NCBI GenBank assembly: GCA_031267375.1
Contig: JAIRZE010000086.1
Location: forward strand, 1 to 38,741
Direction of reading: 5' to 3'
DNA length: 38,741 nucleotides
Origin: Rickettsiales bacterium
GTDB lineage: Bacteria; Pseudomonadota; Alphaproteobacteria; Rs-D84
Positions 1 to 32,080 of this stretch are shown one piece after another. The stretch's first letter is position 1, and each line of letters opens with the position of its first letter. Below the pieces are notes generated by a model, which saw nothing but the letters and a program-made list of their open reading frames with translations, did no database searches and had not been told where the DNA came from. Both the position numbers and the translations under genes were made by a program.

Positions 1-90
1 GTTTTATCTCTTTTTATTTCTGAATAAAAAAAATAAACCCCTATTTGGAACCATTGCCAGTAGGGGTTTTAATTTATAAAGTTTTAACCA

Positions 91-9600: not shown

Positions 9601-10647
9601 ATGAAGTTTTATGAAATCTTAAATGAAGTTTTGATAAAGGTCAATTTGACGCAGAATCAGACACTAAAACCGTTTGGTTCCGGCAGTCCGGAAATATTGG
9701 AATTAATATCACTGTTGAATGACTTGCTTCGCTCGTTCCCTGTGCAAGAAAAAATAACAGAATGTCTGGATGTATGTAATTTTAGAGTTTATTCGCCTTG
9801 GACACAAGGCACGGAATACAAAGTTGGGGATTGTGTATCCGGAATGTACCTTGGCAAACCGGTAGCTTATCAGGTTTTGTCTGGCGGCATATCCAACACA
9901 GAGCCAAACGGCGGGGGTATATTCTCTATGAATGTGTCGCCAAATTGGATTGGCGGCACACTTGTGCAGAGTACACAGGAATATATCAACGATAAGAGCG
10001 CGTGGCGTCCGGTCAATACTATGGTTTGCGGTAATGTCGCACCCAGCGGCAAGCAAGCGGAGTTTGTAGACGATATCGGGTGTGTATGGGTTCGCATACG
10101 CGATGTTTTGTATTGGAAAAATCTGGGCCCGGAATATTGCTATCCACTGGATGTAATCGCCCCGAATTGCGCAACGATTGCACCCAACACACTTTACAAT
10201 AAAACCACCAACCGCCAACTGAAAGAAATCAGCGCCGCGCAGTGGCAATTTAATGCCGCTCACAATATAACCGCGGCAAATGCGTATTATTCCATTTTTA
10301 ACAAAGCAATTAACCTGTTTCCCGGTTTTTCACAAAGGGATGAAATATCGTTTATGTATTATCGCAAGGATCTGGTGCAGGACGCATACGGCGAGATTAA
10401 GGACAGGTTTACCGAAGATGATGACGAGCTGTTATACATTCCCGATCAATTGTTTATTTGGGGCGCGGCCGAGCTTTGGCTGAAAATGAAAGGCTTTGAT
10501 GCAACCTTTGCCGGTATGCGGCTGCACGATGAGTTGTTGCCGGCATACCGCGCGCGTCAGCAAAATACCCAAAGAATCAGCCTGTGCGGCGACGGACCCG
10601 CCGCGTCAATGGTTCCGGACGGAAATTGGAAAATAATAACGGATTAA
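9601..10647 (+). CDS. Head-tail adaptor (tail tubular A / gatekeeper-like) with an inserted carbohydrate-binding-like segment
   Basis: The likely start is ATG 9601 after a GAGGA RBS. C-terminal 'DDDELLYIPDQLFIWGAAELWLKMKGFD' is adaptor-like, and the gene precedes the nozzle gene. Confidence 0.7.
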   Translation: MKFYEILNEVLIKVNLTQNQTLKPFGSGSPEILELISLLNDLLRSFPVQEKITECLDVCNFRVYSPWTQGTEYKVGDCVSGMYLGKPVAYQVLSGGISNTEPNGGGIFSMNVSPNWIGGTLVQSTQEYINDKSAWRPVNTMVCGNVAPSGKQAEFVDDIGCVWVRIRDVLYWKNLGPEYCYPLDVIAPNCATIAPNTLYNKTTNRQLKEISAAQWQFNAAHNITAANAYYSIFNKAINLFPGFSQRDEISFMYYRKDLVQDAYGEIKDRFTEDDDELLYIPDQLFIWGAAELWLKMKGFDATFAGMRLHDELLPAYRARQQNTQRISLCGDGPAASMVPDGNWKIITD

Positions 10648-14865: not shown

Positions 14866-15591
14866 ATGGGAAAAAGTCCAAGTATACCGACATACGATAC
14901 AGCGGCAGCGCAGAATGAGCAAATCTGGGCGGCCGATCAGAATCGTAAATACGGGCAAGTAAATTACAACGGATTGCAGGGTGGATATTCGTATCAAACC
15001 AATCCGGACGGAACGCAAACATTGGTTCAGAACGCATCATCGGCCGACAAAGCGCGGCAGAATCTGCAATCGCAATACCTTTCAGGTGTTGATCCGACAG
15101 AGTTATCAAACTTTAATGTAGATCCCAGTGTTGGGGCGAATGCGTACTGGAACGAGCAGATGACATATATGCAGCCCCAGTTCCAGCGCCAGACAAACGA
15201 TATTATAACTAATTTAGAAAAGCGCGGGATTCCGGCGGGTAGCCCACAGTTTAACCAAGCGATGCAAGAAGTCGCGGATGCCCAGAACCGGAGTATGGCG
15301 ACAACATCCGCAGGCGCGGTATCGGCCGGCCAGCAATATCAGACAAACGCCCTTAATAATATAATCAATAAGCAGGGGGCGCAGACTGGCGCAGCCGGAA
15401 GCTTGGCAAGCCAGATGTACCAAGTTAATCCATACAGCGGCACAGGCGGCACATTTGGCGGCACATACGACAGTCTGTACAACAGCCAAGTCCAGCAGGC
15501 CCAGCTGAAAGCCCAGCAACAAAACGCAATTATGGGTATGGTTGGTAGTATTGCTGGCGCAGGCGCCGGGGCTTTAACAGGGAGATTTTGA
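14866..15591 (+). CDS. DNA ejection (internal virion) protein 1
   Basis: MGKSPSIP start, Q/N/A-rich, C-terminal 'MGMVGSIAGAGAGAL' typical of P22 gp7-like pilot proteins. Confidence 0.72.
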   Translation: MGKSPSIPTYDTAAAQNEQIWAADQNRKYGQVNYNGLQGGYSYQTNPDGTQTLVQNASSADKARQNLQSQYLSGVDPTELSNFNVDPSVGANAYWNEQMTYMQPQFQRQTNDIITNLEKRGIPAGSPQFNQAMQEVADAQNRSMATTSAGAVSAGQQYQTNALNNIINKQGAQTGAAGSLASQMYQVNPYSGTGGTFGGTYDSLYNSQVQQAQLKAQQQNAIMGMVGSIAGAGAGALTGRF

Positions 15592-22701: not shown

Positions 22702-23168
22702 TAGAATTGATAGGCTTTACAATAATAGGTATGTTTTTTATAAGCATTTTTATCTTTATTTTTGCGGCGGAAGAAATATTGGAGCGTCGGGCTGCCAGGC
22801 ACGCCGCTAAACAAACCCCAAAAAAGCCCGACACGAAGCGTTGCGAGTTTGGTCTGTGCGTGTTATTGGCCTGTGCGCTGGGTTTGTCTGCGTGCGGCAC
22901 TACGCCGCCGTCAAAAGCTATTCTGGATAACGCGGGTGCGCAAATTGAAAATGTTAAGAAGCAGGTAGCAGCGCTGCCGACCGAGTGCAACGCGCAGCCG
23001 ATAATTGCGCAGCTGGATGCAATCGCCGGGGCGCAACAGGCGGCGGCCGCCGCGTGCGAGTCGGAAAAGGCCCCGATTCGGAAAGATATCTGGATATGGC
23101 GTCTGATAAGCGGCTTTCTAGCGACCATTATCGCAGCGTTTGTTGTATACAAAGTAATCAAAAAATAG
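22698..23168 (+). CDS. Membrane protein with internal lipobox and C-terminal TM helix; possible unimolecular spanin
   Basis: N-terminal TM, 'LLACALGLSA-C' lipobox, helical linker, C-terminal TM 'WIWRLISGFLATIIAAFVVY'; directly upstream of the endolysin. Confidence 0.45.
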   Translation: MIELIGFTIIGMFFISIFIFIFAAEEILERRAARHAAKQTPKKPDTKRCEFGLCVLLACALGLSACGTTPPSKAILDNAGAQIENVKKQVAALPTECNAQPIIAQLDAIAGAQQAAAAACESEKAPIRKDIWIWRLISGFLATIIAAFVVYKVIKK

Positions 23169-23192
23169 CAAAAAAATCAATTGGAGGGGTAA

Positions 23193-23777
23193 ATGTCTTA
23201 TTCGGAAAATTTTACAAAATCATTAAAACCGCTATTGGCGGCCGAGGGTGGCTATGTATGCCGAGCATCTGACACTGGCGGCCAGACTTACGCCGGTATC
23301 ACGCGTCGTGATAATCCAGGCTGCGCGTTTTGGAGCCAAATTGACGACATCTGTACGAAGATGTCGCAAAAGTCAAGTAATGGCACGGACGAGCTGGCAC
23401 GGACGATTAATAAAGTCCTGAGTGTTAATCAGCGCGCGCAATCGGAGATTGCGGAATGCTATCACGCGCGGTACTGGTTGCCCGCGAACTGCGACAGTCT
23501 GCCGTGGCCGATATGCGCGATAGTGTTTTCAACGGCCGTGAACTGCGGCACGGTTCCCGCAAAAAAGATACTGCAACAGGCACTCGGAGTCGTGGTGGAC
23601 GGCAATGTCGGCCCCAAGACTTTGGCGGCCGTTGAATCGGCGAATCAGAATACCTTAAAAGCCAAATACTGCGATGTACTGACTGCGCATTATCAGGGGA
23701 TTGTGTCCAAGAATCCCGCGCAAAAGCCGAATCTGACCGGCTGGCTTCGCCGAGTTGCGGATCTGCGCAAACTTTGA
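23193..23777 (+). CDS. Endolysin, GH108 family with a peptidoglycan-binding domain
   Basis: 'EGGYV...DTGGQTYAGIT', 'AVNCG', 'DGNVGPKTLAA', 'GWLRRV'. Confidence 0.92.
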   Translation: MSYSENFTKSLKPLLAAEGGYVCRASDTGGQTYAGITRRDNPGCAFWSQIDDICTKMSQKSSNGTDELARTINKVLSVNQRAQSEIAECYHARYWLPANCDSLPWPICAIVFSTAVNCGTVPAKKILQQALGVVVDGNVGPKTLAAVESANQNTLKAKYCDVLTAHYQGIVSKNPAQKPNLTGWLRRVADLRKL

Positions 23778-23823
23778 AAGTGTTTGCAAAAAGCTTTCAA
23801 AATATTGGATTATTTGAAAGAAT

Positions 23824-23849
23824 AACCCCGGTAGCGAACTACCGGGGTT
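23824..23849. terminator. Hairpin/terminator between the convergent late and leftward operons
   Basis: AACCCCGGTAG-CGAA-CTACCGGGGTT flanked by A/T runs. Confidence 0.75.
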
Positions 23850-23972
23850 TAATATTGGGACAAGCCCTGTTAACCGCCGGGTTTCCGGCGGCAACTTTAT
23901 TGCCAGTTTCGGACACTCCACTGGCGGGGAGTTAGGAGAGTACCTGTTTAGTTCAACTTTGTCCTATCCGGT

Positions 23973-24611
23973 TTATTGCTCCGGAATCTTGCTTATGAAA
24001 ATCTTTGTCCACAAACCGTGGCAATAAGATTTAATCAGGTCTATATACTCATATTGCATAGCCTTTGGTAAGGCCTTATTAATCAAATCAATAACACTTA
24101 TCAGTGTATCAGTTGGCATATAGGTTAACGGCGTGCCAAAATCATCATCGTCTTCGCAATTGTTCGCAGCGGCGACACAAAGCTCGCGCGCCGCCCACGA
24201 GCTCCTGCGGTATTCCGGGAACTCGGCCAAGATGCCCAACAGGTTATCCGCGTGCCAGACCGAAGTGGACGCCGAGTTATCACAGAGCCACAACAGCCAG
24301 CCAGAATCTGTGTCATCTTCATAGGTTATCTTATAGCTTCTCTTCGTGTTCTTTTTAGAATCCTTCGTATCCTGCACCGGTATAAAATTATTGTTGTTAA
24401 AGTTATTAGAATGAACAACCACCACTACTTGCTTAACAGCTTTGCCGTATTCTTTCTGATTGCTTATGCTGAAATCTGCAAACCATTTAGTCTGGCGTTG
24501 CATATTCTCTTCGTCGTGTTTATTCCCAGTATTATTGACCAGCGTGTATTTACCCGCTTCCACAATCAAGTGGAACAGCGGGAAATCAGTTGCGATTTGT
24601 TTGTGTGTCAT
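23973..24611 (-). CDS. Hypothetical protein, last gene of the leftward early operon
   Basis: 212-aa ORF whose start overlaps the methyltransferase stop (ATGA). Confidence 0.65.
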   Translation of the reverse strand: MTHKQIATDFPLFHLIVEAGKYTLVNNTGNKHDEENMQRQTKWFADFSISNQKEYGKAVKQVVVVVHSNNFNNNNFIPVQDTKDSKKNTKRSYKITYEDDTDSGWLLWLCDNSASTSVWHADNLLGILAEFPEYRRSSWAARELCVAAANNCEDDDDFGTPLTYMPTDTLISVIDLINKALPKAMQYEYIDLIKSYCHGLWTKIFISKIPEQ

Positions 24612-25303
24612 TTTTTTAATCCTTTTGTAATTAAATTAAAAAGATATTCAGATAATTCTGGCTCAAACATATTCCGCAAAACCTGTCTTTTATTTTTGAT
24701 TTTTGGCCAATTGGACAAGTCAAACCCCGTATCATCCTTAACACGCTTTATAGAGTAGTAGTCTATATTTTTTATACCACGGTTCGGGGAGATTTTATTT
24801 GATTTAGGGGGGGGCGGTATAAGGAGCGGAATGTCAGCGTTAGTCCATACATAATGCCGTCCGATTTTGCGCAAAAATAGCGGGGCGAACCGGACGAAGC
24901 GATCATAATATGGATTGACATTTTCTATAATCCAAGTCGGCGGATTATTACTTGGCAATGTCATCATAAATATTAGTAGTTGAATAAGCATTGGGTCAAT
25001 GAATTCGTGCTCTTTTGCTTTTGAATTTTTCTTATTACGAACTCCGAGCTGATAACGCAAGCGCGAGTGTGTCTGGCACGGCGGCGAAGCTTGTATAATA
25101 TTTTCTTTTCCTTGATAAGTCTTCCAATTATCGCGCAGATAGGCCATAGCGTCGCCGACGATTACTGTGTGGTTCGGATAGCGGTCAGCGTAGCACTCGG
25201 CGATCGCCGGGTCATTTTCAATGGATACAACATCCCAGCCGGACAAGTCCAGCTTTTCGCACCAGCCACCGATTCCAGCAAAAAGTACAAGCATTTTTGG
25301 CAT
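24608..25303 (-). CDS. Orphan C5-cytosine DNA methyltransferase (short)
   Basis: Motif I LFAGIGG, motif IV ASPPCQ, motif VI IIENV; 231 aa. Confidence 0.88.
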   Translation of the reverse strand: MPKMLVLFAGIGGWCEKLDLSGWDVVSIENDPAIAECYADRYPNHTVIVGDAMAYLRDNWKTYQGKENIIQASPPCQTHSRLRYQLGVRNKKNSKAKEHEFIDPMLIQLLIFMMTLPSNNPPTWIIENVNPYYDRFVRFAPLFLRKIGRHYVWTNADIPLLIPPPPKSNKISPNRGIKNIDYYSIKRVKDDTGFDLSNWPKIKNKRQVLRNMFEPELSEYLFNLITKGLKK

Positions 25304-25704
25304 CAGAAAATACTTAAATTATCGGGTTTCGGCTCCCCGGAATTGTTATAGGCATCCAGTGCCGCCTGAGCGGATACCAATATGTCTTTGCGCAATTTAT
25401 CTTCGTTAATCGGTACCATACATAACTCTTCCATATACTCCGCTAGCTTAGCTAATTTGTAATAATCTTCCCTGTCCAAGGCATTTTGTAAGTCGTATTC
25501 TTCGGGTATTAGCACATAACTAACTATTAATCTTTTATCTTTTGGTAAGCGACATTCTAGATCGTGCTTACCAAAATCACCAATATCGGTGAATTTATCT
25601 ATCGTTTCTTTTACAAATTCAATAAGTTCAGTGGCAGTGCCACTTGATGGGAATCCCGCTTTCAAAACAGCTTCAAAGTCAGCTGAGAGTATTATGGTTT
25701 TCAT
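25303..25704 (-). CDS. Hypothetical protein, first gene of the leftward operon
   Basis: True start is ATG 25704 (MKTI...), after the AAGGAG RBS inside the inverted repeat. Confidence 0.7.
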   Translation of the reverse strand: MKTIILSADFEAVLKAGFPSSGTATELIEFVKETIDKFTDIGDFGKHDLECRLPKDKRLIVSYVLIPEEYDLQNALDREDYYKLAKLAEYMEELCMVPINEDKLRKDILVSAQAALDAYNNSGEPKPDNLSIF

Positions 25705-25801
25705 CGTCAAATCTCCTTTGGTTAGGCTTATTGTAGATTAATCTACTTTAATTGTCAAATAAAAAATGTAGATTGTTCTTAATAATAAGAGGATAGGGAT
25801 T
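25699..25801 (-). repeat. Left copy of a perfect 103-bp inverted repeat (leftward promoter, operator, RBS, ATG-AAA)
   Basis: Base-by-base reverse complement of 27698-27800. Confidence 0.97.
25730..25758 (-). promoter_or_regulatory. Leftward sigma70-type promoter with overlapping palindromic operator GTAGATTAATCTAC (25733-25746)
   Basis: TTGACA-17 nt-TACAAT on the minus strand. A degenerate second operator copy (10/14 match) lies at 25768-25781. Confidence 0.85.
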
Positions 25802-25830
25802 GTAGTACAATTAATAAGTAAGGATATAAA

Positions 25831-26208
25831 ATGCTGACTAACAAACAAATAATAGCCAGAATTCGCTCTATTGCCAGCGCAAAAGGGATAAAAAACGATG
25901 CTGAAATTGCAAGGCGCGCCGGAACAACTCACGTAATGCTTATAGATATTCCAAATCTAAAAACATCCCCCCGCTTGGATACCATAGACAAGTTCGCGCG
26001 CGCTCTTGGCGTATCGGTTTCAGATTTAATTTACCCCGAACAATCACAAAAAGATACCGAAATGCTGGAAATATGGAATCAATTAAACGATTCGGAACAA
26101 TCCGAAATGCGCGGACTGATGTCCGGAATAATTTTACGCAGAAAATACGGACTGGATTCTGATTCTGAGCATAAAAAAACATTACCAAAGAAATCCGCCG
26201 CCGCATAA
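25831..26208 (+). CDS. XRE/cI-like HTH repressor (no S24 peptidase domain)
   Basis: 'DAEIARRAG...SPRLDTIDKFARALGVSVSDLI' HTH; 125 aa; divergent from the leftward promoter. Confidence 0.85.
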   Translation: MLTNKQIIARIRSIASAKGIKNDAEIARRAGTTHVMLIDIPNLKTSPRLDTIDKFARALGVSVSDLIYPEQSQKDTEMLEIWNQLNDSEQSEMRGLMSGIILRRKYGLDSDSEHKKTLPKKSAAA

Positions 26209-26280
26209 TTGCCGAAAACATAGTATTTATCACGGATTTGAAATTATTAAGAGAATTGAATTAATAAGGGAAATTTTAAT

Positions 26281-27699
26281 ATGGAGCGGCTAATTGTTAT
26301 TTTAATTATTTTATTTGTTTGGATTTTTTGGAATTTAAGCGCAATTAAGAAACATCACAAGACAAAAGTAAAACTTGATTCGTATCAGAAATCTGTGTTT
26401 GAATATATAACTAAAAATAATGGCAATGTATTTATTCAAGGGAAAGCAGGAACCGGAAAATCAACATTTATCAAATTTCTAGCCAAATATTATAATAACA
26501 ATATTTTGATAGCTGCCCCAACTGGTATAGCGGCTATAAATATAGATGGCTCCACTATTAATTCTCTTTATAAGATTCCCCCAGAAGATATATTAGATCA
26601 AGAACAAATTATTGATTCTGTAAACTTGGACCCTAATAAATATCCACGAAAAAAACTATTTGAAGCGGCGGAATTGTTAATAATTGACGAAATATCTATG
26701 GTGCGGCCCGATATTTTAGATGCAATAGATAATATTCTTCGCGAACTTTTAGATAAAGAAAAACCTTTTGGTGGAAAACAATTGTTATTATTAGGCGATT
26801 TATTTCAATTACCACCGATTATAAAAAATGATAAATCTGATACGGATTCAGTTAGTGTAAGCGCTATATTTAAGGATATTTACGGCTTTTCTAATGCTTA
26901 TTTTTTTGATTCTATCGCATATAAAACCGGAAAATTTAGAATTTTTGAATTTACTAAGGTATATCGTCAAGACGCCGATAATTTACTCACAAAAAATTTA
27001 GATAATTTACGAAATAATATCAATATACAAGAAACGATTAATTATTTTAATACTCTTAAACATTATGACCCTAAAATGTTAAATGAATATACGACGATAA
27101 CGCCATATAGAAAAGTTGCAGAAAATATAAATAATAAACGCTTACGGGAAAACCCTAATGAGCCGCTATCTTTCACAGCAAAAATTATTGATAAATTCCC
27201 TGCGGATGAAGCGCCCAGCCCAAAATTATTAACATTAAAAGTTGGAACACTGGTTATGTTTACTAATAATAGCAAACCTAACTGGCATAATGGAAGTATG
27301 GGGGTGATCACGGGTTTTGAAAAAGACGAAAATGACGGGGAAGATATTATTATCGTAAGTACATTGCCTAATAAAAAAGAAGTTCGGGTTATTAAAACCG
27401 AATGGGAAAAGAAACAATATTATTATGATAAAAAAAGTGGAAAAGTTTCTCAAAAAACTATCGGTAAATTTATACAGTTTCCGCTGGCGCTGGGTTATGC
27501 GATGACGATACACAAGGCCCAAGGGAAAACATTACATAAAGTTATAATAGACATATCCCGCGGAGCGTTTGCACACGGACAAACCTATGTTGCCCTAAGC
27601 AGAACAAGATATAGTTCCGATATGTATATAAAAAATGACTTAAAAATATCTGACTGCTTAACGGATCACAGAATTATTAACTTCTTATCAAAAAAATAA
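26281..27699 (+). CDS. Pif1/RecD-like SF1B helicase with an N-terminal hydrophobic anchor
   Basis: GKAGTGKS, AAPTGIAA, LIIDEISMV, GDLFQLPPI, FTKVYRQ, QFPLALGYAMTIHKAQGKTL, GQTYVALSR; visibly AT-rich. Confidence 0.92.
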   Translation: MERLIVILIILFVWIFWNLSAIKKHHKTKVKLDSYQKSVFEYITKNNGNVFIQGKAGTGKSTFIKFLAKYYNNNILIAAPTGIAAINIDGSTINSLYKIPPEDILDQEQIIDSVNLDPNKYPRKKLFEAAELLIIDEISMVRPDILDAIDNILRELLDKEKPFGGKQLLLLGDLFQLPPIIKNDKSDTDSVSVSAIFKDIYGFSNAYFFDSIAYKTGKFRIFEFTKVYRQDADNLLTKNLDNLRNNINIQETINYFNTLKHYDPKMLNEYTTITPYRKVAENINNKRLRENPNEPLSFTAKIIDKFPADEAPSPKLLTLKVGTLVMFTNNSKPNWHNGSMGVITGFEKDENDGEDIIIVSTLPNKKEVRVIKTEWEKKQYYYDKKSGKVSQKTIGKFIQFPLALGYAMTIHKAQGKTLHKVIIDISRGAFAHGQTYVALSRTRYSSDMYIKNDLKISDCLTDHRIINFLSKK

Positions 27700-27800
27700 T
27701 CCCTATCCTCTTATTATTAAGAACAATCTACATTTTTTATTTGACAATTAAAGTAGATTAATCTACAATAAGCCTAACCAAAGGAGATTTGACGATGAAA
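27698..27800 (+). repeat. Right copy of the perfect 103-bp inverted repeat (rightward promoter, operator, RBS, ATG-AAA)
   Basis: Reverse complement of 25699-25801. Confidence 0.97.
27741..27769 (+). promoter_or_regulatory. Rightward sigma70-type promoter with operator palindrome GTAGATTAATCTAC (27753-27766)
   Basis: TTGACA 27741-46, 17-nt spacer, TACAAT 27764-69; AAGGAG 27781-86; ATG 27795. Confidence 0.85.
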
Positions 27801-28226
27801 TACTTCAAACACACCTGCAAATCCACATTAGAACAACGGCTTGCCCGTAAGTTTCAACAACTTTCTAATGGTCAAGCCTGCGCCGTATGCGGCCAAATCG
27901 CACACTGCGAGCATCACATCATCCGGCGCCACCAGTCCGAACTGCTGCGCTATGACTGGCGCAACGGCCTGCACCTGTGCCGCGAGTGCCACAACCGCAT
28001 TCACAACGGCGAAATCCCGGAACCTGTCGCGCCCAAGCACAAAGAGCTGTTGCAGTTCATCGCGACAATTAACTTTAAGGATATTCTGCGCGAGCGCGGA
28101 ATCACAGCCGAAGAGTATTACCGCGAGAAAGAGCGCGAGCTGGATGAACAGTTATCAGATTTGGACATACAATATGTCCGAATATCAAACGGCTATGTAT
28201 ACCAAGGACCAGACATACCGTTTTAA
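27795..28226 (+). CDS. HNH/NinG(Rap)-like zinc nuclease
   Basis: CAVCG...EHHIIRR...LRYDWRNGLHLCRECHNRIH. Confidence 0.75.
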   Translation: MKYFKHTCKSTLEQRLARKFQQLSNGQACAVCGQIAHCEHHIIRRHQSELLRYDWRNGLHLCRECHNRIHNGEIPEPVAPKHKELLQFIATINFKDILRERGITAEEYYREKERELDEQLSDLDIQYVRISNGYVYQGPDIPF

Positions 28227-28240
28227 TAAGTTTGGGGCAA

Positions 28241-28260
28241 ATTTTTGACAAGTCAAAAAT
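28241..28260. promoter_or_regulatory. 20-bp palindrome ATTTTTGAC-AA-GTCAAAAAT (operator-like)
   Basis: Perfect 9-bp arms, read directly from the sequence. Confidence 0.55.
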
Positions 28261-28269
28261 CCTTTGAAC

Positions 28270-28519
28270 GCCGGGTGTGGCCCCAGCCCGGCAACTTTAA
28301 CAAGCCCCGGAATCTATCTGATGTGTTTCAGCAGGGGCGCCAAGTTTTGCGACGCGCCCGTCAGTAGGTGCATATAGTAGGCGATGACAAGAAGCCGAAT
28401 TGTGCGGAAAGCGAGTAGCTAAGTAGAAACCCGACCGCGCGGGGGATCGCCGCGCGAAAGACTGTTGGAAAGACAACACGAGATTAACGGCAAACACTGC
28501 GCGATGCATTTCGCGGCAG
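28270..28519 (+). ncRNA. Candidate structured non-coding RNA/leader
   Basis: At least six GC-rich stems in a gap with no convincing ORF; no family recognised. Confidence 0.35.
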
Positions 28520-28551
28520 GTGATTTTTGCAACAAAAAAAGGGAGAGAAAA

Positions 28552-28668
28552 ATGGAACTTAATGAAAATCTGGAATTAAGTCTGGGCGAAAAGCTGGGTG
28601 GCGTGGCATTCGGTTTGTTTTTATTTTTGCTGTGTTTGCCGGATATATATTGCAATAAAGGGGGATAA
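28552..28668 (+). CDS. Small membrane peptide (38 aa)
   Basis: GGAG RBS; MELNENLELSLGEKLGGVAFGLFLFLLCLP... Confidence 0.5.
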   Translation: MELNENLELSLGEKLGGVAFGLFLFLLCLPDIYCNKGG

Positions 28669-28669
28669 A

Positions 28670-28789
28670 ATGCTGACTATTGAACAAATCAGAGCCAAGG
28701 TAGATCTGCCGGTATCGGACGAAGTGCTGATGCGGCTGCGGGATTTGATTTACAAAACAGTTTACGGATTTATGGGGGCAATCAAATGA
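28670..28789 (+). CDS. Small protein (39 aa) upstream of the integrase
   Basis: GGGGA RBS; MLTIEQIRAKVDLPVSDEVLMRLRDLIY...; 1 nt after the previous stop. Confidence 0.55.
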   Translation: MLTIEQIRAKVDLPVSDEVLMRLRDLIYKTVYGFMGAIK

Positions 28790-28887
28790 AACTTGTAATA
28801 GCGCCATTTTGGATGAATTGGGCATTTTGGGCCGCTGGATATAACTCCTATTATGTGTTTGTAAATATAGATAAATGGGTTAAATAA
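28786..28887 (+). CDS. Small Trp-rich peptide (33 aa) translationally coupled to the integrase
   Basis: ATGA overlap upstream and TAATG overlap with the integrase start; MKLVIAPFWMNWAFWAAGYNSYYVFVNIDKWVK. Confidence 0.45.
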   Translation: MKLVIAPFWMNWAFWAAGYNSYYVFVNIDKWVK

Positions 28888-30452
28888 TGAGCAACAACGC
28901 AGTCATTTATGCCAGAGTGTCTTCGGCCCAGCAGCGCCGGGATAATTCCATTGCGTCCCAGCTGGACGCCTGTCGCAAGTATGCGGCGGCGCGGGGTATG
29001 ACTGTGGTCCGTGAATTTATGGATGACGGATTTTCGGGCAAAAATGACCAGCGGCCGGACTTACAAAATATGCTGCGTTGGCTGAAAAAGAATCCGGACA
29101 CAACGGTCATAGCTTACGATACATCGCGCATAGCCCGGCATATCGGAACTATGTGCAATATCAGCGACGCAATAGATGTGGCGGATTGCAGTTTGTCATT
29201 CGTGGTAATGAACTTTGATAAAACGCCCGAGGGCGAATTTATGAAGAATATGATTTCCGCCCAGAATCAATACTTCCGCGAATCCAATACAAGAAAGGTA
29301 AAAGACAGTATGCTGAGCCAGATGAAGCTGGGTATATACCTGCTGAATCCGCCAATAGGATATGCAAGGTCAAGGGACGGCCAGAAACGACTGGTACTGG
29401 TAAGGGACGAGCCAACAGCAACGATAATAGCGGAAGCAATAGGCAAATACGCCACAGGACAACTGAATACAAAGCTTGATGTTGCAGACTGGCTGAACAA
29501 AAGACTGTCAAAGCCGATAGGTGAAGACACGGCCCGAAGAATAGTAGAGAGCCCAGTATACACTGCAAGGTTTGCTTACAAGCCCTGGGGTATACCAGAG
29601 CAGGATTGGCATATAGAACCAATAATAACCCCAGAACTGCACCAAAGGGTAATGGATAGGATAAAAGGCATAGGAAGACACCAGATGCGAAGCAACCTAC
29701 TTGAAGACTTTCCATTACGGGGATATGTAATCTGTGGATACTGCGGACACCCATTGACCAGCTGTTGGTCAAGTGGAAAGAATAATAAGTTCCCATACTA
29801 TTTTTGCTCCCAGAAAGGATGCAGTCATTATGGCAAGTCAATCCGCCGGGCGGACATTGAAGATGCAATGCTGACCGTTTTAAGCGACATCAGGGCAGAT
29901 GATAGCATTCTTGCGCTGGTTGACCTTATTATTGACAATGTTGCAGAAAAAGCGCATAATGAAGCATTGGCAAGCGCGAAGAACTTAAACGGCGTTATTG
30001 CCGATATTCAGAAAGAAATTGATGCGCTGGTGGATTTGATTGCGAAGCGCTCTTTGAATTGTGCGCTGGCCAATGACCCAGTGGCGGCGCAGTACGAAGA
30101 CAAGATTTGGAAATTGACTTCCCGGATTCAGGAATTGAAAGCAGATCAAAAGAATCTGGAAACCGGGCACGCAGGCAAGGATTATAGGGCAGCGTTTGAA
30201 CGGACGCGTGAGTTCATTAGAACACCTGTAAAATTGTTTGAAAATGGCGATTTATCGCAGAAAAGAAAGGTGCTTGAAGTAGTATTCAAGGGTAAACCGA
30301 GGTATTTCAGAAATGAGGGTTATAGAACACCGGAAATAGCCGAGATTTTCAGCATTTTATCAGAAAAAAACGAGAGTAAAATAGATTGGTGCACCCGGCG
30401 CGATTCGAACGCGCAATCCCCGCCTTCGGAGGGCGATGCTCTATCCAGTTAA
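28887..30452 (+). CDS. int: Large serine recombinase (integrase)
   Basis: YARVSS catalytic motif, D.GFSG...RP.L, SRIAR, recombinase domain, zinc ribbon CGYCG...YYFC...C, coiled coil. Confidence 0.95.
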   Translation: MSNNAVIYARVSSAQQRRDNSIASQLDACRKYAAARGMTVVREFMDDGFSGKNDQRPDLQNMLRWLKKNPDTTVIAYDTSRIARHIGTMCNISDAIDVADCSLSFVVMNFDKTPEGEFMKNMISAQNQYFRESNTRKVKDSMLSQMKLGIYLLNPPIGYARSRDGQKRLVLVRDEPTATIIAEAIGKYATGQLNTKLDVADWLNKRLSKPIGEDTARRIVESPVYTARFAYKPWGIPEQDWHIEPIITPELHQRVMDRIKGIGRHQMRSNLLEDFPLRGYVICGYCGHPLTSCWSSGKNNKFPYYFCSQKGCSHYGKSIRRADIEDAMLTVLSDIRADDSILALVDLIIDNVAEKAHNEALASAKNLNGVIADIQKEIDALVDLIAKRSLNCALANDPVAAQYEDKIWKLTSRIQELKADQKNLETGHAGKDYRAAFERTREFIRTPVKLFENGDLSQKRKVLEVVFKGKPRYFRNEGYRTPEIAEIFSILSEKNESKIDWCTRRDSNAQSPPSEGDALSS

Positions 30453-30463
30453 GCCACGGGTGC
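30387..30463 (-). tRNA. tRNA-Arg(CCG), probable prophage attachment site
   Basis: Minus strand GCACCCG...CTCCGAA...GTTCGAATC...CGGGTGC-A-CCA; all stems pair; 77 nt. Confidence 0.95.
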
Positions 30464-30473
30464 ATTGCCGATT

Positions 30474-30502
30474 ACTATAAATCATTATTCCCGCCCTTGC
30501 AA
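30474..30502 (-). promoter_or_regulatory. Promoter of tRNA-Arg
   Basis: TTGCAA-17 nt-TATAGT on the minus strand, about 10 nt upstream of the tRNA. Confidence 0.7.
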
Positions 30503-30577
30503 ATAAAAATAATCACGCGAGCACAACAAAGCTATCTTTATGCGCTCGGACAGAAATCAAAACGAACACGCAGTGTT

Positions 30578-30702
30578 CGTCATCCCTTTGAGGCTCGGGA
30601 TCCACTGCGTCGCAGACCTTAATCCTCGAAGCGGATACACTGTATAAATGCTTCGCATTAAAGCCTGCGGCGCAGTGGATCCCGGCCTGCGCCGGGATGA
30701 CG
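30578..30702. repeat. REPIN/REP-like long imperfect palindrome
   Basis: CGTCATCCC...GGGATCCACTGCGTCGCAG...CTGCGGCGCAGTGGATCCC...GGGATGACG; contains a GTCATCCCGGCGCAGGCCGGGATCCA unit on the minus strand. Confidence 0.75.
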
Positions 30703-30797
30703 ATTTACTTCGTAAATCGTTTTGATTTTATTTTGATTCTTAAAAGATACACTCTTTGCACTTGCATCTATAATAATAATTGACTACAATTTGGCAA

Positions 30798-31259: not shown

Positions 31260-31280
31260 CTGGATTCCTTTATTCAAACA

Positions 31281-31321
31281 CCCTCCCCGGCCACTTCGTG
31301 GCCACCCCTCCATAGGAGGGG
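31281..31321. repeat. REP-like double hairpin
   Basis: GGCCAC-ttc-GTGGCC followed by CCCCTCC-ata-GGAGGGG. Confidence 0.55.
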
Positions 31322-31379
31322 AATTTTCACCGAGTTTAATTTCCACCAATTGCTAATTGATAATTGCTAACTGCTAATT

Positions 31380-31403
31380 AAAAACGCCCAAACGGGCGTT
31401 TTT
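31380..31403. terminator. Bidirectional terminator between the lipoprotein gene and aqpZ
   Basis: AAAAACGCCC-AAAC-GGGCGTTTTT. Confidence 0.85.
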
Positions 31404-32080
31404 TACTTTGTCTTCTTTTTGCTTTCCAGCAGGTATTTCCAAACAAATCCCGCCAGCACCGCGCCCGCTATCGGCGCGACCCAAAACACCCACAGCTGAG
31501 CCATTGCCGCCGGATCCGTCGCAAACAAAGCCTGGGATGTGCTGCGCGCCGGATTCACCGATGTATTCGTAATCGGTATGCTGACCAAGTGTATCGCCGT
31601 CAATGCAAGTCCTATTGCTACGCCTGCAAATTTATTAAACGCATCCTTTGCCGTGGTTCCCAGAATCACCAGCAAAAACACCGCCGTCATCACGACTTCG
31701 CACAGCACCGCCGCGCACAAGGTATAGGTTCCATAAATATTTGCCGCAAATCCGCCTACATCAACGCCGCCGCCGGAAACGCCCGTCGCAATTCCATAAA
31801 TCACGGCCGCGCCCAATATCGCGCCCGCAACCTGAGCCACCACATACGGCAGGACAGAGCGCCACTTGAAACAGCCCGCCGTCGCCAAGCCGATTGACAC
31901 CGCCGGATTGAAATGTCCGCCGGAAATCGGGCCGACTGCATAGGCCATAACCAGAACGGAAAGTCCGAATGCCAAAGCGATTCCTGCGAAGCCTATGTAC
32001 GCGCCCGCAAGCACGGCAGAGCCGCAGCCGAACAGAACCAAGACAAAAGTCCCCAATAATTCTGCGAAAAGTTTTTTCAT
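31403..32080 (-). CDS. aqpZ: Aquaporin Z
   Basis: [34 protein letters not shown]. Confidence 0.95.

What the first reader, a model, noticed from the sequence alone, without database searches (positions are those of the whole stretch)
25699..27800. Perfect 103-bp inverted repeat makes the two early promoters identical and brackets a repressor-helicase cassette
Seen: 25699-25801 is the exact reverse complement of 27698-27800. Each copy holds TTGACA-17-TACAAT, a perfect 14-bp palindrome GTAGATTAATCTAC over the spacer/-10, a degenerate second site, an AAGGAG RBS and ATG-AAA, so both outward operons share one transcription and translation start unit. Between them lie only the HTH repressor and the helicase. 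No cro-like gene follows either promoter, and the repressor lacks an autocleavage domain. Established: lambdoid PL and PR share operators but are not sequence-identical over 100 bp. Inference: a mirror-symmetric, Cro-less genetic switch giving matched left/right output. Zero mismatches imply recent duplication or ongoing homogenisation by inversion (flip-flop) of the 1.9-kb core, giving two genome isomers.
Basis: partly seen in the sequence, partly recalled or inferred. Interest (0 to 1): 0.85.

Follow-up and report, generated by a model that had tools for sequence, protein, structure and literature searches.

The report
Mirrored promoter-operator arms around prophage repressor
The perfect 103-bp inverted repeat is real and is the left and right promoter-operator pair of a lambda-style prophage immunity region; related phages have the same mirrored layout with diverged arms, so here one arm was recently copied over the other.

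Summary
25699-25801 is the exact reverse complement of 27698-27800, and it is the only such repeat in the contig and in the MAG. Each arm carries TTGACA-17-TACAAT, the palindrome GTAGATTAATCTAC over the spacer/-10, a weaker site 35 bp upstream, AAGGAG and ATG-AAA.

The arms face outward. They bracket a SinR-like HTH repressor and an AT-rich PIF1/Dda-like helicase.

Eight related loci carry a homologue of this repressor. The seven that include both flanks have the same mirrored layout: left operon, arm, repressor, variable cargo gene, arm, right operon. Their arms are only 61-75% identical, with exact runs of 9-21 nt. Orthologous arms are closer to each other than the two arms of one genome.

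So the mirror architecture is an inherited, lambda OL/OR-like design. The perfect identity here is a recent, local gene conversion or duplication that covers exactly the family's arm module. It is not family-wide homogenisation.

Two related loci place the repressor in opposite orientations relative to a shared HNH gene, so the cassette has flipped at least once in evolution.

This is a new member of a known kind and of modest interest.

The parts
25699..25801 (-). Left arm. Outward (leftward) module with O2, -35, O1/-10, RBS and ATG-AAA of the 133-aa gene.
   Evidence: Exact reverse complement of 27698-27800. Aligns column for column with the arms of relatives.
27698..27800 (+). Right arm. 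Outward (rightward) module. It starts inside the helicase stop codon and ends after ATG-AAA of the HNH-like gene, so it fills the whole intergenic space.
25730..25758 (-). P_L: TTGACA-17-TACAAT.
   Evidence: Promoter scans, 11 of 12 matches.
27741..27769 (+). P_R: TTGACA-17-TACAAT.
   Evidence: Promoter scans, 11 of 12 matches.
25733..25746 (.). O1 (left): perfect palindrome GTAGATTAATCTAC over the spacer and -10.
   Evidence: The homologous position in relatives also holds a palindrome.
27753..27766 (.). O1 (right): perfect palindrome GTAGATTAATCTAC over the spacer and -10.
25768..25781 (.). O2 (left): degenerate site (GTAGATTGTTCTTA), 35 bp centre-to-centre from O1, on the repressor-gene side of the -35.
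   Evidence: Half-site scan. L046 has a second full palindrome 34 bp from the first at the same place.
27718..27731 (.). O2 (right): degenerate site TAAGAACAATCTAC.
25831..26208 (+). Repressor: 125-aa Cro/C1-type HTH with a C-terminal helical tail, SinR-like, no S24 peptidase domain.
   Evidence: Pfam HTH_26/HTH_3. PHROG transcriptional repressor/regulator families. The family profile matches SinR 1b0n over 7-106 at E=3.5e-6. GC 0.418, like neighbouring phage genes.
25802..25830 (+). Unique 29-nt leader of the repressor gene, holding a possible -10 (TACAAT, 25806-25811) and RBS AAGGA. The promoter is inferred only.
   Evidence: Read from the sequence. No consensus promoter was called here.
26281..27699 (+). 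Cargo gene: PIF1/Dda-like SF1 helicase with a hydrophobic N-terminus. It is a compositional outlier.
   Evidence: Pfam PIF1 at 3.8e-30. PHROG Dda-like helicase at 1e-79. GC 0.311 and GC3 0.249 against about 0.46 for the phage. Homologues at 39-50% identity occur in related host genomes; those inspected lie among chromosomal housekeeping genes.
25303..25704 (-). First gene of the leftward operon (133 aa, orphan). It is followed by a C5 DNA methyltransferase fragment-like gene (24608-25303) and a 212-aa orphan (23973-24611). The operon ends at a bidirectional terminator at 23824-23891.
27795..28226 (+). First gene of the rightward operon (HNH-like, 143 aa). The operon continues through two small ORFs to the large serine integrase (28887-30452).
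   Evidence: Homologues sit next to homologous repressors in L046 and L167.

Best explanation
This is the immunity (lysogeny-control) region of a roughly 30.4-kb prophage integrated at tRNA-Arg, and it is built like lambda's OL/PL - cI-rex - OR/PR region.

A SinR-like HTH repressor sits in the middle, together with a horizontally acquired helicase as cargo. Two outward-facing promoters flank them. Each promoter is overlapped by a strong palindromic operator (O1) and preceded by a weaker one (O2).

Inferred mechanism: repressor dimers, or higher oligomers, occupy O1 and O2 in both arms and shut off both outward operons. The leftward operon is the 133-aa gene, the methyltransferase and the 212-aa gene. 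The rightward operon runs from the HNH-like gene to the integrase. The repressor has no autocleavage domain, so release would need an antirepressor or dilution.

Shown by comparison: the mirrored arms are an inherited feature of this phage group.

Inferred: in this phage one arm was recently overwritten by the other. The likely route is gene conversion between two already homologous arms, because the converted tract (103 nt) matches the extent of the arm module in relatives. As a result, promoter, operators, 5' leader, RBS and the first two codons are now identical on both sides.
For: Anatomy.

Conserved architecture:
- L050, L047, L054 and L053 and L167, L168 and L170 all show left operon <- arm | HTH -> cargo -> | arm -> right operon.
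- In each, the arms align in inverted orientation from about 45 nt upstream of the -35 to the RBS or start codon.
- L046 shows one such arm, with two palindromes 34 bp apart and TTGACT-17-TACAAT.

Operator inference: palindrome half-sites differ between genomes (ATCTAC here, ATTTAC, ATATAC, CTATAC elsewhere). They match between the two arms of each genome and always overlap the spacer/-10.

Recent conversion:
- Arm identity is 61-72% over about 107 nt in six relatives and 75% over 91 nt in L170, with exact runs of 9-21 nt. Here it is 103 of 103.
- Orthologous left arms are 79% identical, against 58-65% for the two arms of one genome.

Cargo slot is variable: helicase here; WYL proteins, a PLD nuclease or membrane proteins elsewhere. 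The helicase is a GC outlier.

Only regulatory region in the element: contig bases 1-29 are an imperfect inverted copy of 30354-30382, which fits the P and P' half-sites of the serine-integrase att site. That would make the whole prophage 1 to about 30385. No second control region or replication module was found.
Against: - No binding, transcription-start or expression data exist; all regulatory roles are inferred from sequence and comparison.
- The repressor's own promoter is not a consensus match.
- The outward operons contain no recognisable replication or late-activator genes, so calling this 'the' lysis-lysogeny switch is an inference.
- The half-site spacing differs from the nearest operator relatives (14-bp palindrome here, 16-bp in L046, L167 and L168).
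- A de novo inverted duplication cannot be told apart from gene conversion with one genome.
Confidence: 0.75

Rival explanations
1. Active flip-flop. The 1.9-kb core inverts frequently by homologous recombination (RecA or a phage function) between the perfect arms. Two genome isomers then coexist, and recombination-associated gene conversion keeps the arms identical.
For: - 103 bp of perfect homology exceeds the minimum that RecA needs (established knowledge), and the host encodes RecA.
- Inversion would be nearly neutral, because each arm is a complete module.
- In the family, the repressor cassette is found in both orientations relative to a shared HNH gene: L046 is divergent, while L167 and this window are co-directional. 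The L046 and L167 HTH proteins are 53% identical and their HNH proteins 40%.
Against: - No read evidence could be obtained.
- The contig runs through both arms in a single orientation, and no alternative-junction contig is in the bin.
- The relatives' arms are diverged and evolve independently, so homogenisation is not a family property.
- No dedicated invertase is present. The only recombinase is a large serine integrase, and the arms show no similarity to its att region.
Confidence: 0.15
2. The 2.1-kb unit (arms plus core) is a mobile element with 103-bp terminal inverted repeats that inserted into the prophage.
For: - The arrangement has a TIR-like geometry.
- The core contains an AT-rich foreign gene.
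Against: - No transposase is present. The core holds only a small HTH protein and a helicase.
- The arms supply the RBS and start codons of both flanking genes, and joining the flanks leaves neither gene with a start.
- The HTH gene has phage-like GC; only the helicase is foreign.
- There is no other copy in the MAG and none in three public collections.
- Relatives have diverged arms in the same positions with different cargo.
Confidence: 0.03
3. Assembly artefact. The perfect identity, or one of the arms, was created by the metagenome assembler.
For: - The genome is a fragmented MAG of 109 contigs, 78% complete.
- The reads could not be inspected.
Against: - Both arms are expected from homology with seven independent assemblies of relatives.
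- Both arms are needed to give the flanking genes start codons.
- Arms that were really 60-75% identical would not be collapsed to identity by an assembler.
- The repeat is internal and has unique sequence on all four sides.
Confidence: 0.03

Closest known systems
Bacteriophage lambda immunity region (PL/OL - rexB rexA cI - OR/PR)
   Same: - The repressor and lysogen-expressed accessory gene(s) sit between two outward-facing early promoters about 2 kb apart.
- Each promoter is overlapped by several operators of a single specificity.
- The accessory slot holds non-essential cargo.
   Different: - There are two operators per arm, not three.
- The arms here are complete, alignable modules from O2 to the start codon, and in this phage they are 100% identical over 103 bp.
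- The repressor is a short SinR-like protein without the S24 autocleavage domain.
- No Cro-like HTH gene is visible behind either promoter.
- The integrase lies in the rightward operon.
Bacillus subtilis SinR (PDB 1b0n, 3zkc)
   Same: The repressor-family profile aligns to SinR over almost its full length, covering the HTH plus the C-terminal helical multimerisation region. This suggests oligomeric binding and control by a protein antagonist rather than by RecA-mediated cleavage.
   Different: - The similarity is distant (E=3.5e-6).
- The operator sequences are unrelated.
- No SinI-like partner was identified.
- Oligomeric state was not tested.
Invertible DNA segments (Mu G/Gin, P1 C/Cin, Salmonella hin, Bacteroides invertons)
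   Same: A segment is bounded by inverted repeats, and a serine recombinase gene lies within about 1 kb.
   Different: - Those repeats are 14-34 bp recombinase sites (0.6 kb in P1). The switchable promoter or gene ends lie inside the segment, and a small invertase is dedicated to the inversion.
- Here the promoters are in the arms, an inversion would change almost nothing, and the recombinase is a large integrase with its own att site.

Membership tests
Lambda-type prophage immunity region (OL/OR design) | The repressor gene is flanked by two outward-facing early promoters. | tested here: met
   TTGACA-17-TACAAT on both sides, facing outward. The same holds in seven relatives.
Lambda-type prophage immunity region (OL/OR design) | Both promoters are overlapped by repeated operators of one specificity. 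| tested here: met
   By sequence only. O1 is a perfect palindrome and O2 is degenerate in each arm; six of the eight half-sites in the window lie in the arms. In relatives, operators covary between the two arms of a genome. Binding was not tested.
Lambda-type prophage immunity region (OL/OR design) | The repressor is a Cro/C1-type HTH protein. | tested here: met
   Pfam HTH_26 at 1e-5 and HTH_3 at 3.9e-5, both over the curated cut-off.
Lambda-type prophage immunity region (OL/OR design) | The repressor carries a LexA/S24-type autocleavage domain for SOS induction. | tested here: not met
   The protein is 125 aa with only the HTH domain and a SinR-like C-terminus.
Lambda-type prophage immunity region (OL/OR design) | A Cro-like second HTH regulator is the first gene of one early operon. 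| tested here: inconclusive
   The first genes are a 133-aa orphan (no hits; AlphaFold pLDDT 60) and an HNH-like protein. Some relatives start P_R with a GapR-like DNA-binding gene.
Site-specific invertible segment (Hin/Gin/Cin type) | Both orientations are present in a population. | not testable with these tools
No alternative-junction contig is in the MAG.
Site-specific invertible segment (Hin/Gin/Cin type) | Short recombinase crossover sites lie in the repeats, with a dedicated invertase adjacent. | tested here: not met
   The only recombinase is a 521-aa large serine integrase with a zinc-ribbon domain, used for tRNA-Arg integration. The arms have no similarity to its att region.
Site-specific invertible segment (Hin/Gin/Cin type) | Inversion switches expression, because the promoter or alternative coding ends lie inside the segment. 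| tested here: not met
   Both promoters, RBSs and start codons lie in the arms, not in the core.
Transposable element with terminal inverted repeats | The element encodes a transposase and occurs in more than one context. | tested here: not met
   No transposase domain was found. There are only two arm copies in the genome and no hits elsewhere.

The most novel reading that the evidence does not exclude
The perfect arms make the repressor-helicase core a freely invertible cassette, and flip-flop with gene conversion is how this phage group keeps its two operator sets matched when immunity specificity changes.

In this phage both isomers would coexist. They would differ in which outward operon receives read-through from the lysogenically expressed repressor-helicase transcript, because no terminator lies between the helicase stop codon and the arm. 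One isomer would feed the integrase side and the other the methyltransferase side. That would give heritable heterogeneity in basal integrase or methylase expression.
Probability: 0.15. Interest if true: 0.6.

Novelty: new member of a known kind. Interest (0 to 1): 0.33.

Why it matters
This finding defines the control region of a previously undescribed group of small temperate phages. Their hosts are uncultured proteobacteria with genomes of about 1 Mb; the two named relative MAGs are an 'uncultured proteobacterium' RUG MAG and a second uncultured-proteobacterium MAG.

The design is simple and modular: a SinR-like repressor, a swappable cargo slot that holds defence-like genes, and two mirrored full expression modules.

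The perfectly converted arms are a natural snapshot of how two operator sets can be kept matched to one repressor. They also give a ready pair of identical repressible promoters for testing. None of this overturns the lambda paradigm.

Tried and rejected
- Exact and relaxed promoter-operator patterns found nothing in viral contigs, metagenome contigs or genome contigs.
- A looser operator pattern in viral contigs gave 110 chance hits. None carried an HTH or HNH homologue.
- BLAST of 23000-30600 against the phage collection matched only the tRNA.
- Exact-protein look-ups for the helicase and the 133-aa protein found nothing on record.
- The search for related loci in viral contigs with the helicase, the integrase, the HNH protein and the HTH alignment found no relatives.
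- The search for homologous proteins returned only self for the HTH and the 212-aa protein.
- The 133-aa protein has no homologue in 300 genomes of the order.
- I inspected 20 prophages with 30-35% identical integrases. They share only the integrase, and their few inverted repeats are host REP-like elements.
- The TIR-transposon reading is rejected, because the arms provide the start codons.
- The assembly-artefact reading is rejected as unlikely, because relatives show the same two-arm layout.
- Rfam has no match in 25300-28900.
- The AlphaFold model of the 133-aa protein was too poor (pLDDT 60) to search with.
- One literature search found no description of identical long inverted promoter modules around a repressor.
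Full report
**1. Observation**

The inverted repeat is exactly as described. The arms are 25699-25801 and 27698-27800, 103 nt, 100% complementary, with 1896 nt between them. It is the only inverted repeat that a minus-strand self-BLAST finds in the whole 38.7-kb window. The arm occurs exactly twice in the 917-kb, 109-contig MAG to which the window belongs; the window is the whole of contig C58.

Read outward, each arm holds these elements in order:
- a degenerate site, TAAGAACAATCTAC (27718-27731 / 25768-25781);
- TTGACA (27741-27746);
- a 17-nt spacer;
- TACAAT (27764-27769), with the perfect palindrome GTAGATTAATCTAC (27753-27766 / 25733-25746) lying over the spacer and -10;
- AAGGAG (27781-27786);
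- ATG-AAA (27795-27800).

The palindrome has only these two matches at up to 2 mismatches, against 0.08 expected. Six of the eight GTAGAWT half-sites in the window are in the arms. The two promoters score 11 of 12 and are the only matches of that quality in intergenic DNA.

The right arm fills the whole space between the helicase stop codon and codon 2 of the next gene. The left arm leaves only 29 unique nucleotides before the repressor's ATG.

**2. What lies inside and outside the repeat**

The core encodes two proteins.
- A 125-aa Cro/C1-type HTH protein (Pfam HTH_26 and HTH_3, no S24 domain). A profile of its family matches SinR over nearly its full length.
- A 472-aa PIF1/Dda-like helicase.

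Composition differs between the two genes. The HTH gene has GC 0.418, like the neighbouring phage genes. The helicase has GC 0.311 and GC3 0.249 and is a clear outlier. Its relatives, at 39-50% identity, are found in 22 of 40 related host genomes. In the loci I inspected they lie among chromosomal genes, and there is a paralogue in this MAG. So the helicase, not the whole core, is the recent import.

Outward to the left are a 133-aa orphan, a C5-methyltransferase-like gene and a 212-aa orphan. This operon ends at a bidirectional terminator that faces the lysis genes.

Outward to the right are an HNH-like 143-aa gene, two small ORFs and a large serine integrase. The 3' end of the integrase gene runs into tRNA-Arg(CCG).

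Positions 1-23777 hold terminase, portal, capsid, tail and lysis genes, all on the plus strand.

Contig bases 1-29 are an imperfect inverted copy of 30354-30382. This is what the P and P' half-sites of a serine-integrase att site look like. It suggests the contig starts at attL and that the prophage is complete at about 30.4 kb. No replication initiator and no second control region are visible.

**3. Relatives**

The phage itself has no close relative in any collection. Distant homologues of the repressor were found in eight loci, and they settle the question.
- L046 is a 2.2-kb JGI contig. It carries homologues of both the repressor (35% identity) and the HNH gene (36%), arranged divergently. 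Between them are two palindromes, GTAGAATAGATTCTAC and GTAGAATGTATTCTAC, 34 bp apart. The second lies over the spacer/-10 of TTGACT-17-TACAAT. This is the geometry of the window's arm, where the two sites are 35 bp apart.
- L047-L051 are metagenome contigs. L053 and L054 come from 'uncultured proteobacterium' MAGs. L167, L168 and L170 come from genomes of the host's family.
- Every one of these with enough flank shows the same layout: left operon <- arm | HTH -> cargo -> | arm -> right operon. The two arms align in inverted orientation from about 45 nt upstream of the -35, through the -10, to the RBS and sometimes the first codons.
- The cargo differs between loci: WYL proteins, a PLD-family nuclease, or membrane proteins.
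- The palindromic half-sites differ between genomes (ATCTAC here, ATTTAC, ATATAC, CTATAC elsewhere). Within one genome they match between the two arms. This is the pattern expected for operators of a co-evolving repressor.

**4. How unusual is the perfect identity?**

In the relatives, the arms are 61-72% identical over about 107 nt, or 75% over 91 nt in L170. Their longest exact runs are 9-21 nt. Here the figure is 103 of 103.

The orthologous left arms of two related phages are 79% identical, whereas the two arms within either phage are 58-65% identical. The arms therefore normally evolve independently, under selection for the promoter and operators only.

Its outcome is that relatives have divergent copies, which argues against family-wide homogenisation.

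The 103-nt identical tract here coincides with the span over which arms are homologous in relatives. That is what a single gene-conversion event between two pre-existing homologous arms would leave. A fresh inverted duplication cannot be excluded from one genome.

**5. Mechanism**

*Shown:*
- two identical outward consensus promoters, each with an overlapping palindrome;
- a family-conserved mirrored layout;
- an HTH repressor without a cleavage domain.

*Inferred:*
- The repressor binds O1 (occluding the -10) and O2 in both arms and silences both operons in the lysogen.
- The repressor and the helicase are the lysogen-expressed genes, with the helicase in the position that rexAB holds in lambda.
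- Derepression needs an antagonist protein.
- Identical arms give equal transcription and translation starts on both sides.
- O2 sits just upstream of where the -35 of the repressor's own promoter would be (-10 candidate TACAAT at 25806-25811), so it could serve autoregulation.

**6. Inversion**

The evidence is therefore indirect.

For inversion:
- The host has RecA.
- 103 bp of perfect homology is sufficient for RecA-dependent recombination (established knowledge).
- A flip would be nearly neutral.
- L046 and L167 have repressors 53% identical and HNH proteins 40% identical, yet the repressor cassette is in opposite orientations relative to HNH. The window has the L167 orientation. The cassette has therefore flipped at least once in the family's history.

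Against frequent flipping now:
- The contig crosses both arms in one orientation.
- No alternative junction is present in the bin.
- There is no dedicated invertase.

I put ongoing flip-flop at about 0.15.

**7. Comparison with known systems and verdict**

Functionally this is a lambda-type immunity region. Earlier notes of this scan record several mirrored OL/OR cassettes around prophage repressors, for example 33-bp near-identical blocks in Rac. I used those only as leads.

It differs from lambda in three ways: the SinR-like repressor, the absence of a visible Cro, and arms that are complete expression modules. It fails the defining tests for a Hin/Gin-type invertible segment and for a TIR transposon.

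The perfect identity is a recent local event. Interest is modest.

Noticed in passing
G000:C31:18809-18909 (own MAG, other contig); source is window 26159-26190: Inside the PDZ domain of an S41 C-terminal processing protease gene, a 35-36-nt direct duplication (TGTCGTCTATGGGGGAAATGACGCGTACCGCGCCC) flanks a 30-31-nt insert. The insert is identical to a piece of this prophage's repressor gene. The period is 66 nt, the same as the MAG's CRISPR array (36-nt repeat plus 30-nt spacer), and the insertion is in frame (+22 aa). The protospacer's 3' flank (gAAAT) resembles those of the two array spacers (tAAAA, cAGAT). This looks like an ectopic, off-target CRISPR spacer integration into a coding gene. 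No Cas1 was found in the 78%-complete MAG.
   Followed up: partly
G000:C66:~2490-2900; protospacers at window 10170-10199 and 15127-15156: A CRISPR array with the repeat GGTACAGATTCACATAAAAAGGCGGGTTTCCCCGCC and about 6 spacers. Two adjacent spacers match this prophage exactly. This means either self-targeting or a mix of lysogenic and immune strains in the bin. No cas gene was recognised next to the array; the neighbour is an AT-rich 489-aa orphan.
   Followed up: partly
window 1-29 and 30354-30382: The first 29 bases of the contig are an imperfect inverted copy of the sequence just before the tRNA inside the 3' end of the integrase gene. This fits the P and P' half-sites of a serine-integrase attP split between attL and attR. 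The contig therefore seems to begin at attL, and the prophage (about 30.4 kb) seems complete, yet it has no recognisable replication initiator.
   Followed up: partly
window 25826-25858 and 28665-28697: A 33-nt direct repeat (28 of 33 identical) covers the RBS, the ATG and the first nine codons of both the repressor gene and a 39-aa ORF just upstream of the integrase (MLTIEQIRAK...DLIY). The 39-aa ORF may be the remnant of an older repressor gene, or a recombination patch.
   Followed up: partly
G000:C87:5834-5951: A tRNA-Gly(GCC) gene is followed by a sequence encoding ...SILSKKNESKIDWC, 89% identical at the DNA level to the integrase C-terminus/att region of this prophage. It is a likely scar or secondary att site of a related phage at another tRNA.
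   Followed up: partly
window 26281-27699: The cargo helicase has a hydrophobic N-terminal segment (MERLIVILIILFVWIFWNL). In the nine relatives whose N-termini I read, the starts vary and I did not see this segment. Its closest relatives (48-50% identity) come from low-GC members of the host family, not from the host's own paralogue (46%, contig C43).
   Followed up: partly
L050, L053, L054, L046, L167, L168, L170 (cargo position after the HTH gene): The slot between the repressor gene and the distal arm holds a different gene in almost every relative: WYL-domain proteins, a PLD-like nuclease on the opposite strand, or small membrane proteins. It behaves like a hotspot for defence-like or exclusion-like cargo.
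   Followed up: partly
window 30555-30770 and 31265-31409: Two host intergenic repeat families (REP-like, GC-rich palindromes) recur on dozens of contigs of the MAG. They confirm that the DNA to the right of the tRNA is host chromosome.
   Followed up: no
window 25799-25811: A 13-bp palindrome, ATTGTAGTACAAT, straddles the inner end of the left arm and contains the candidate -10 of the repressor gene. It shares ATTGTAG with the flank of O1.
   Followed up: no
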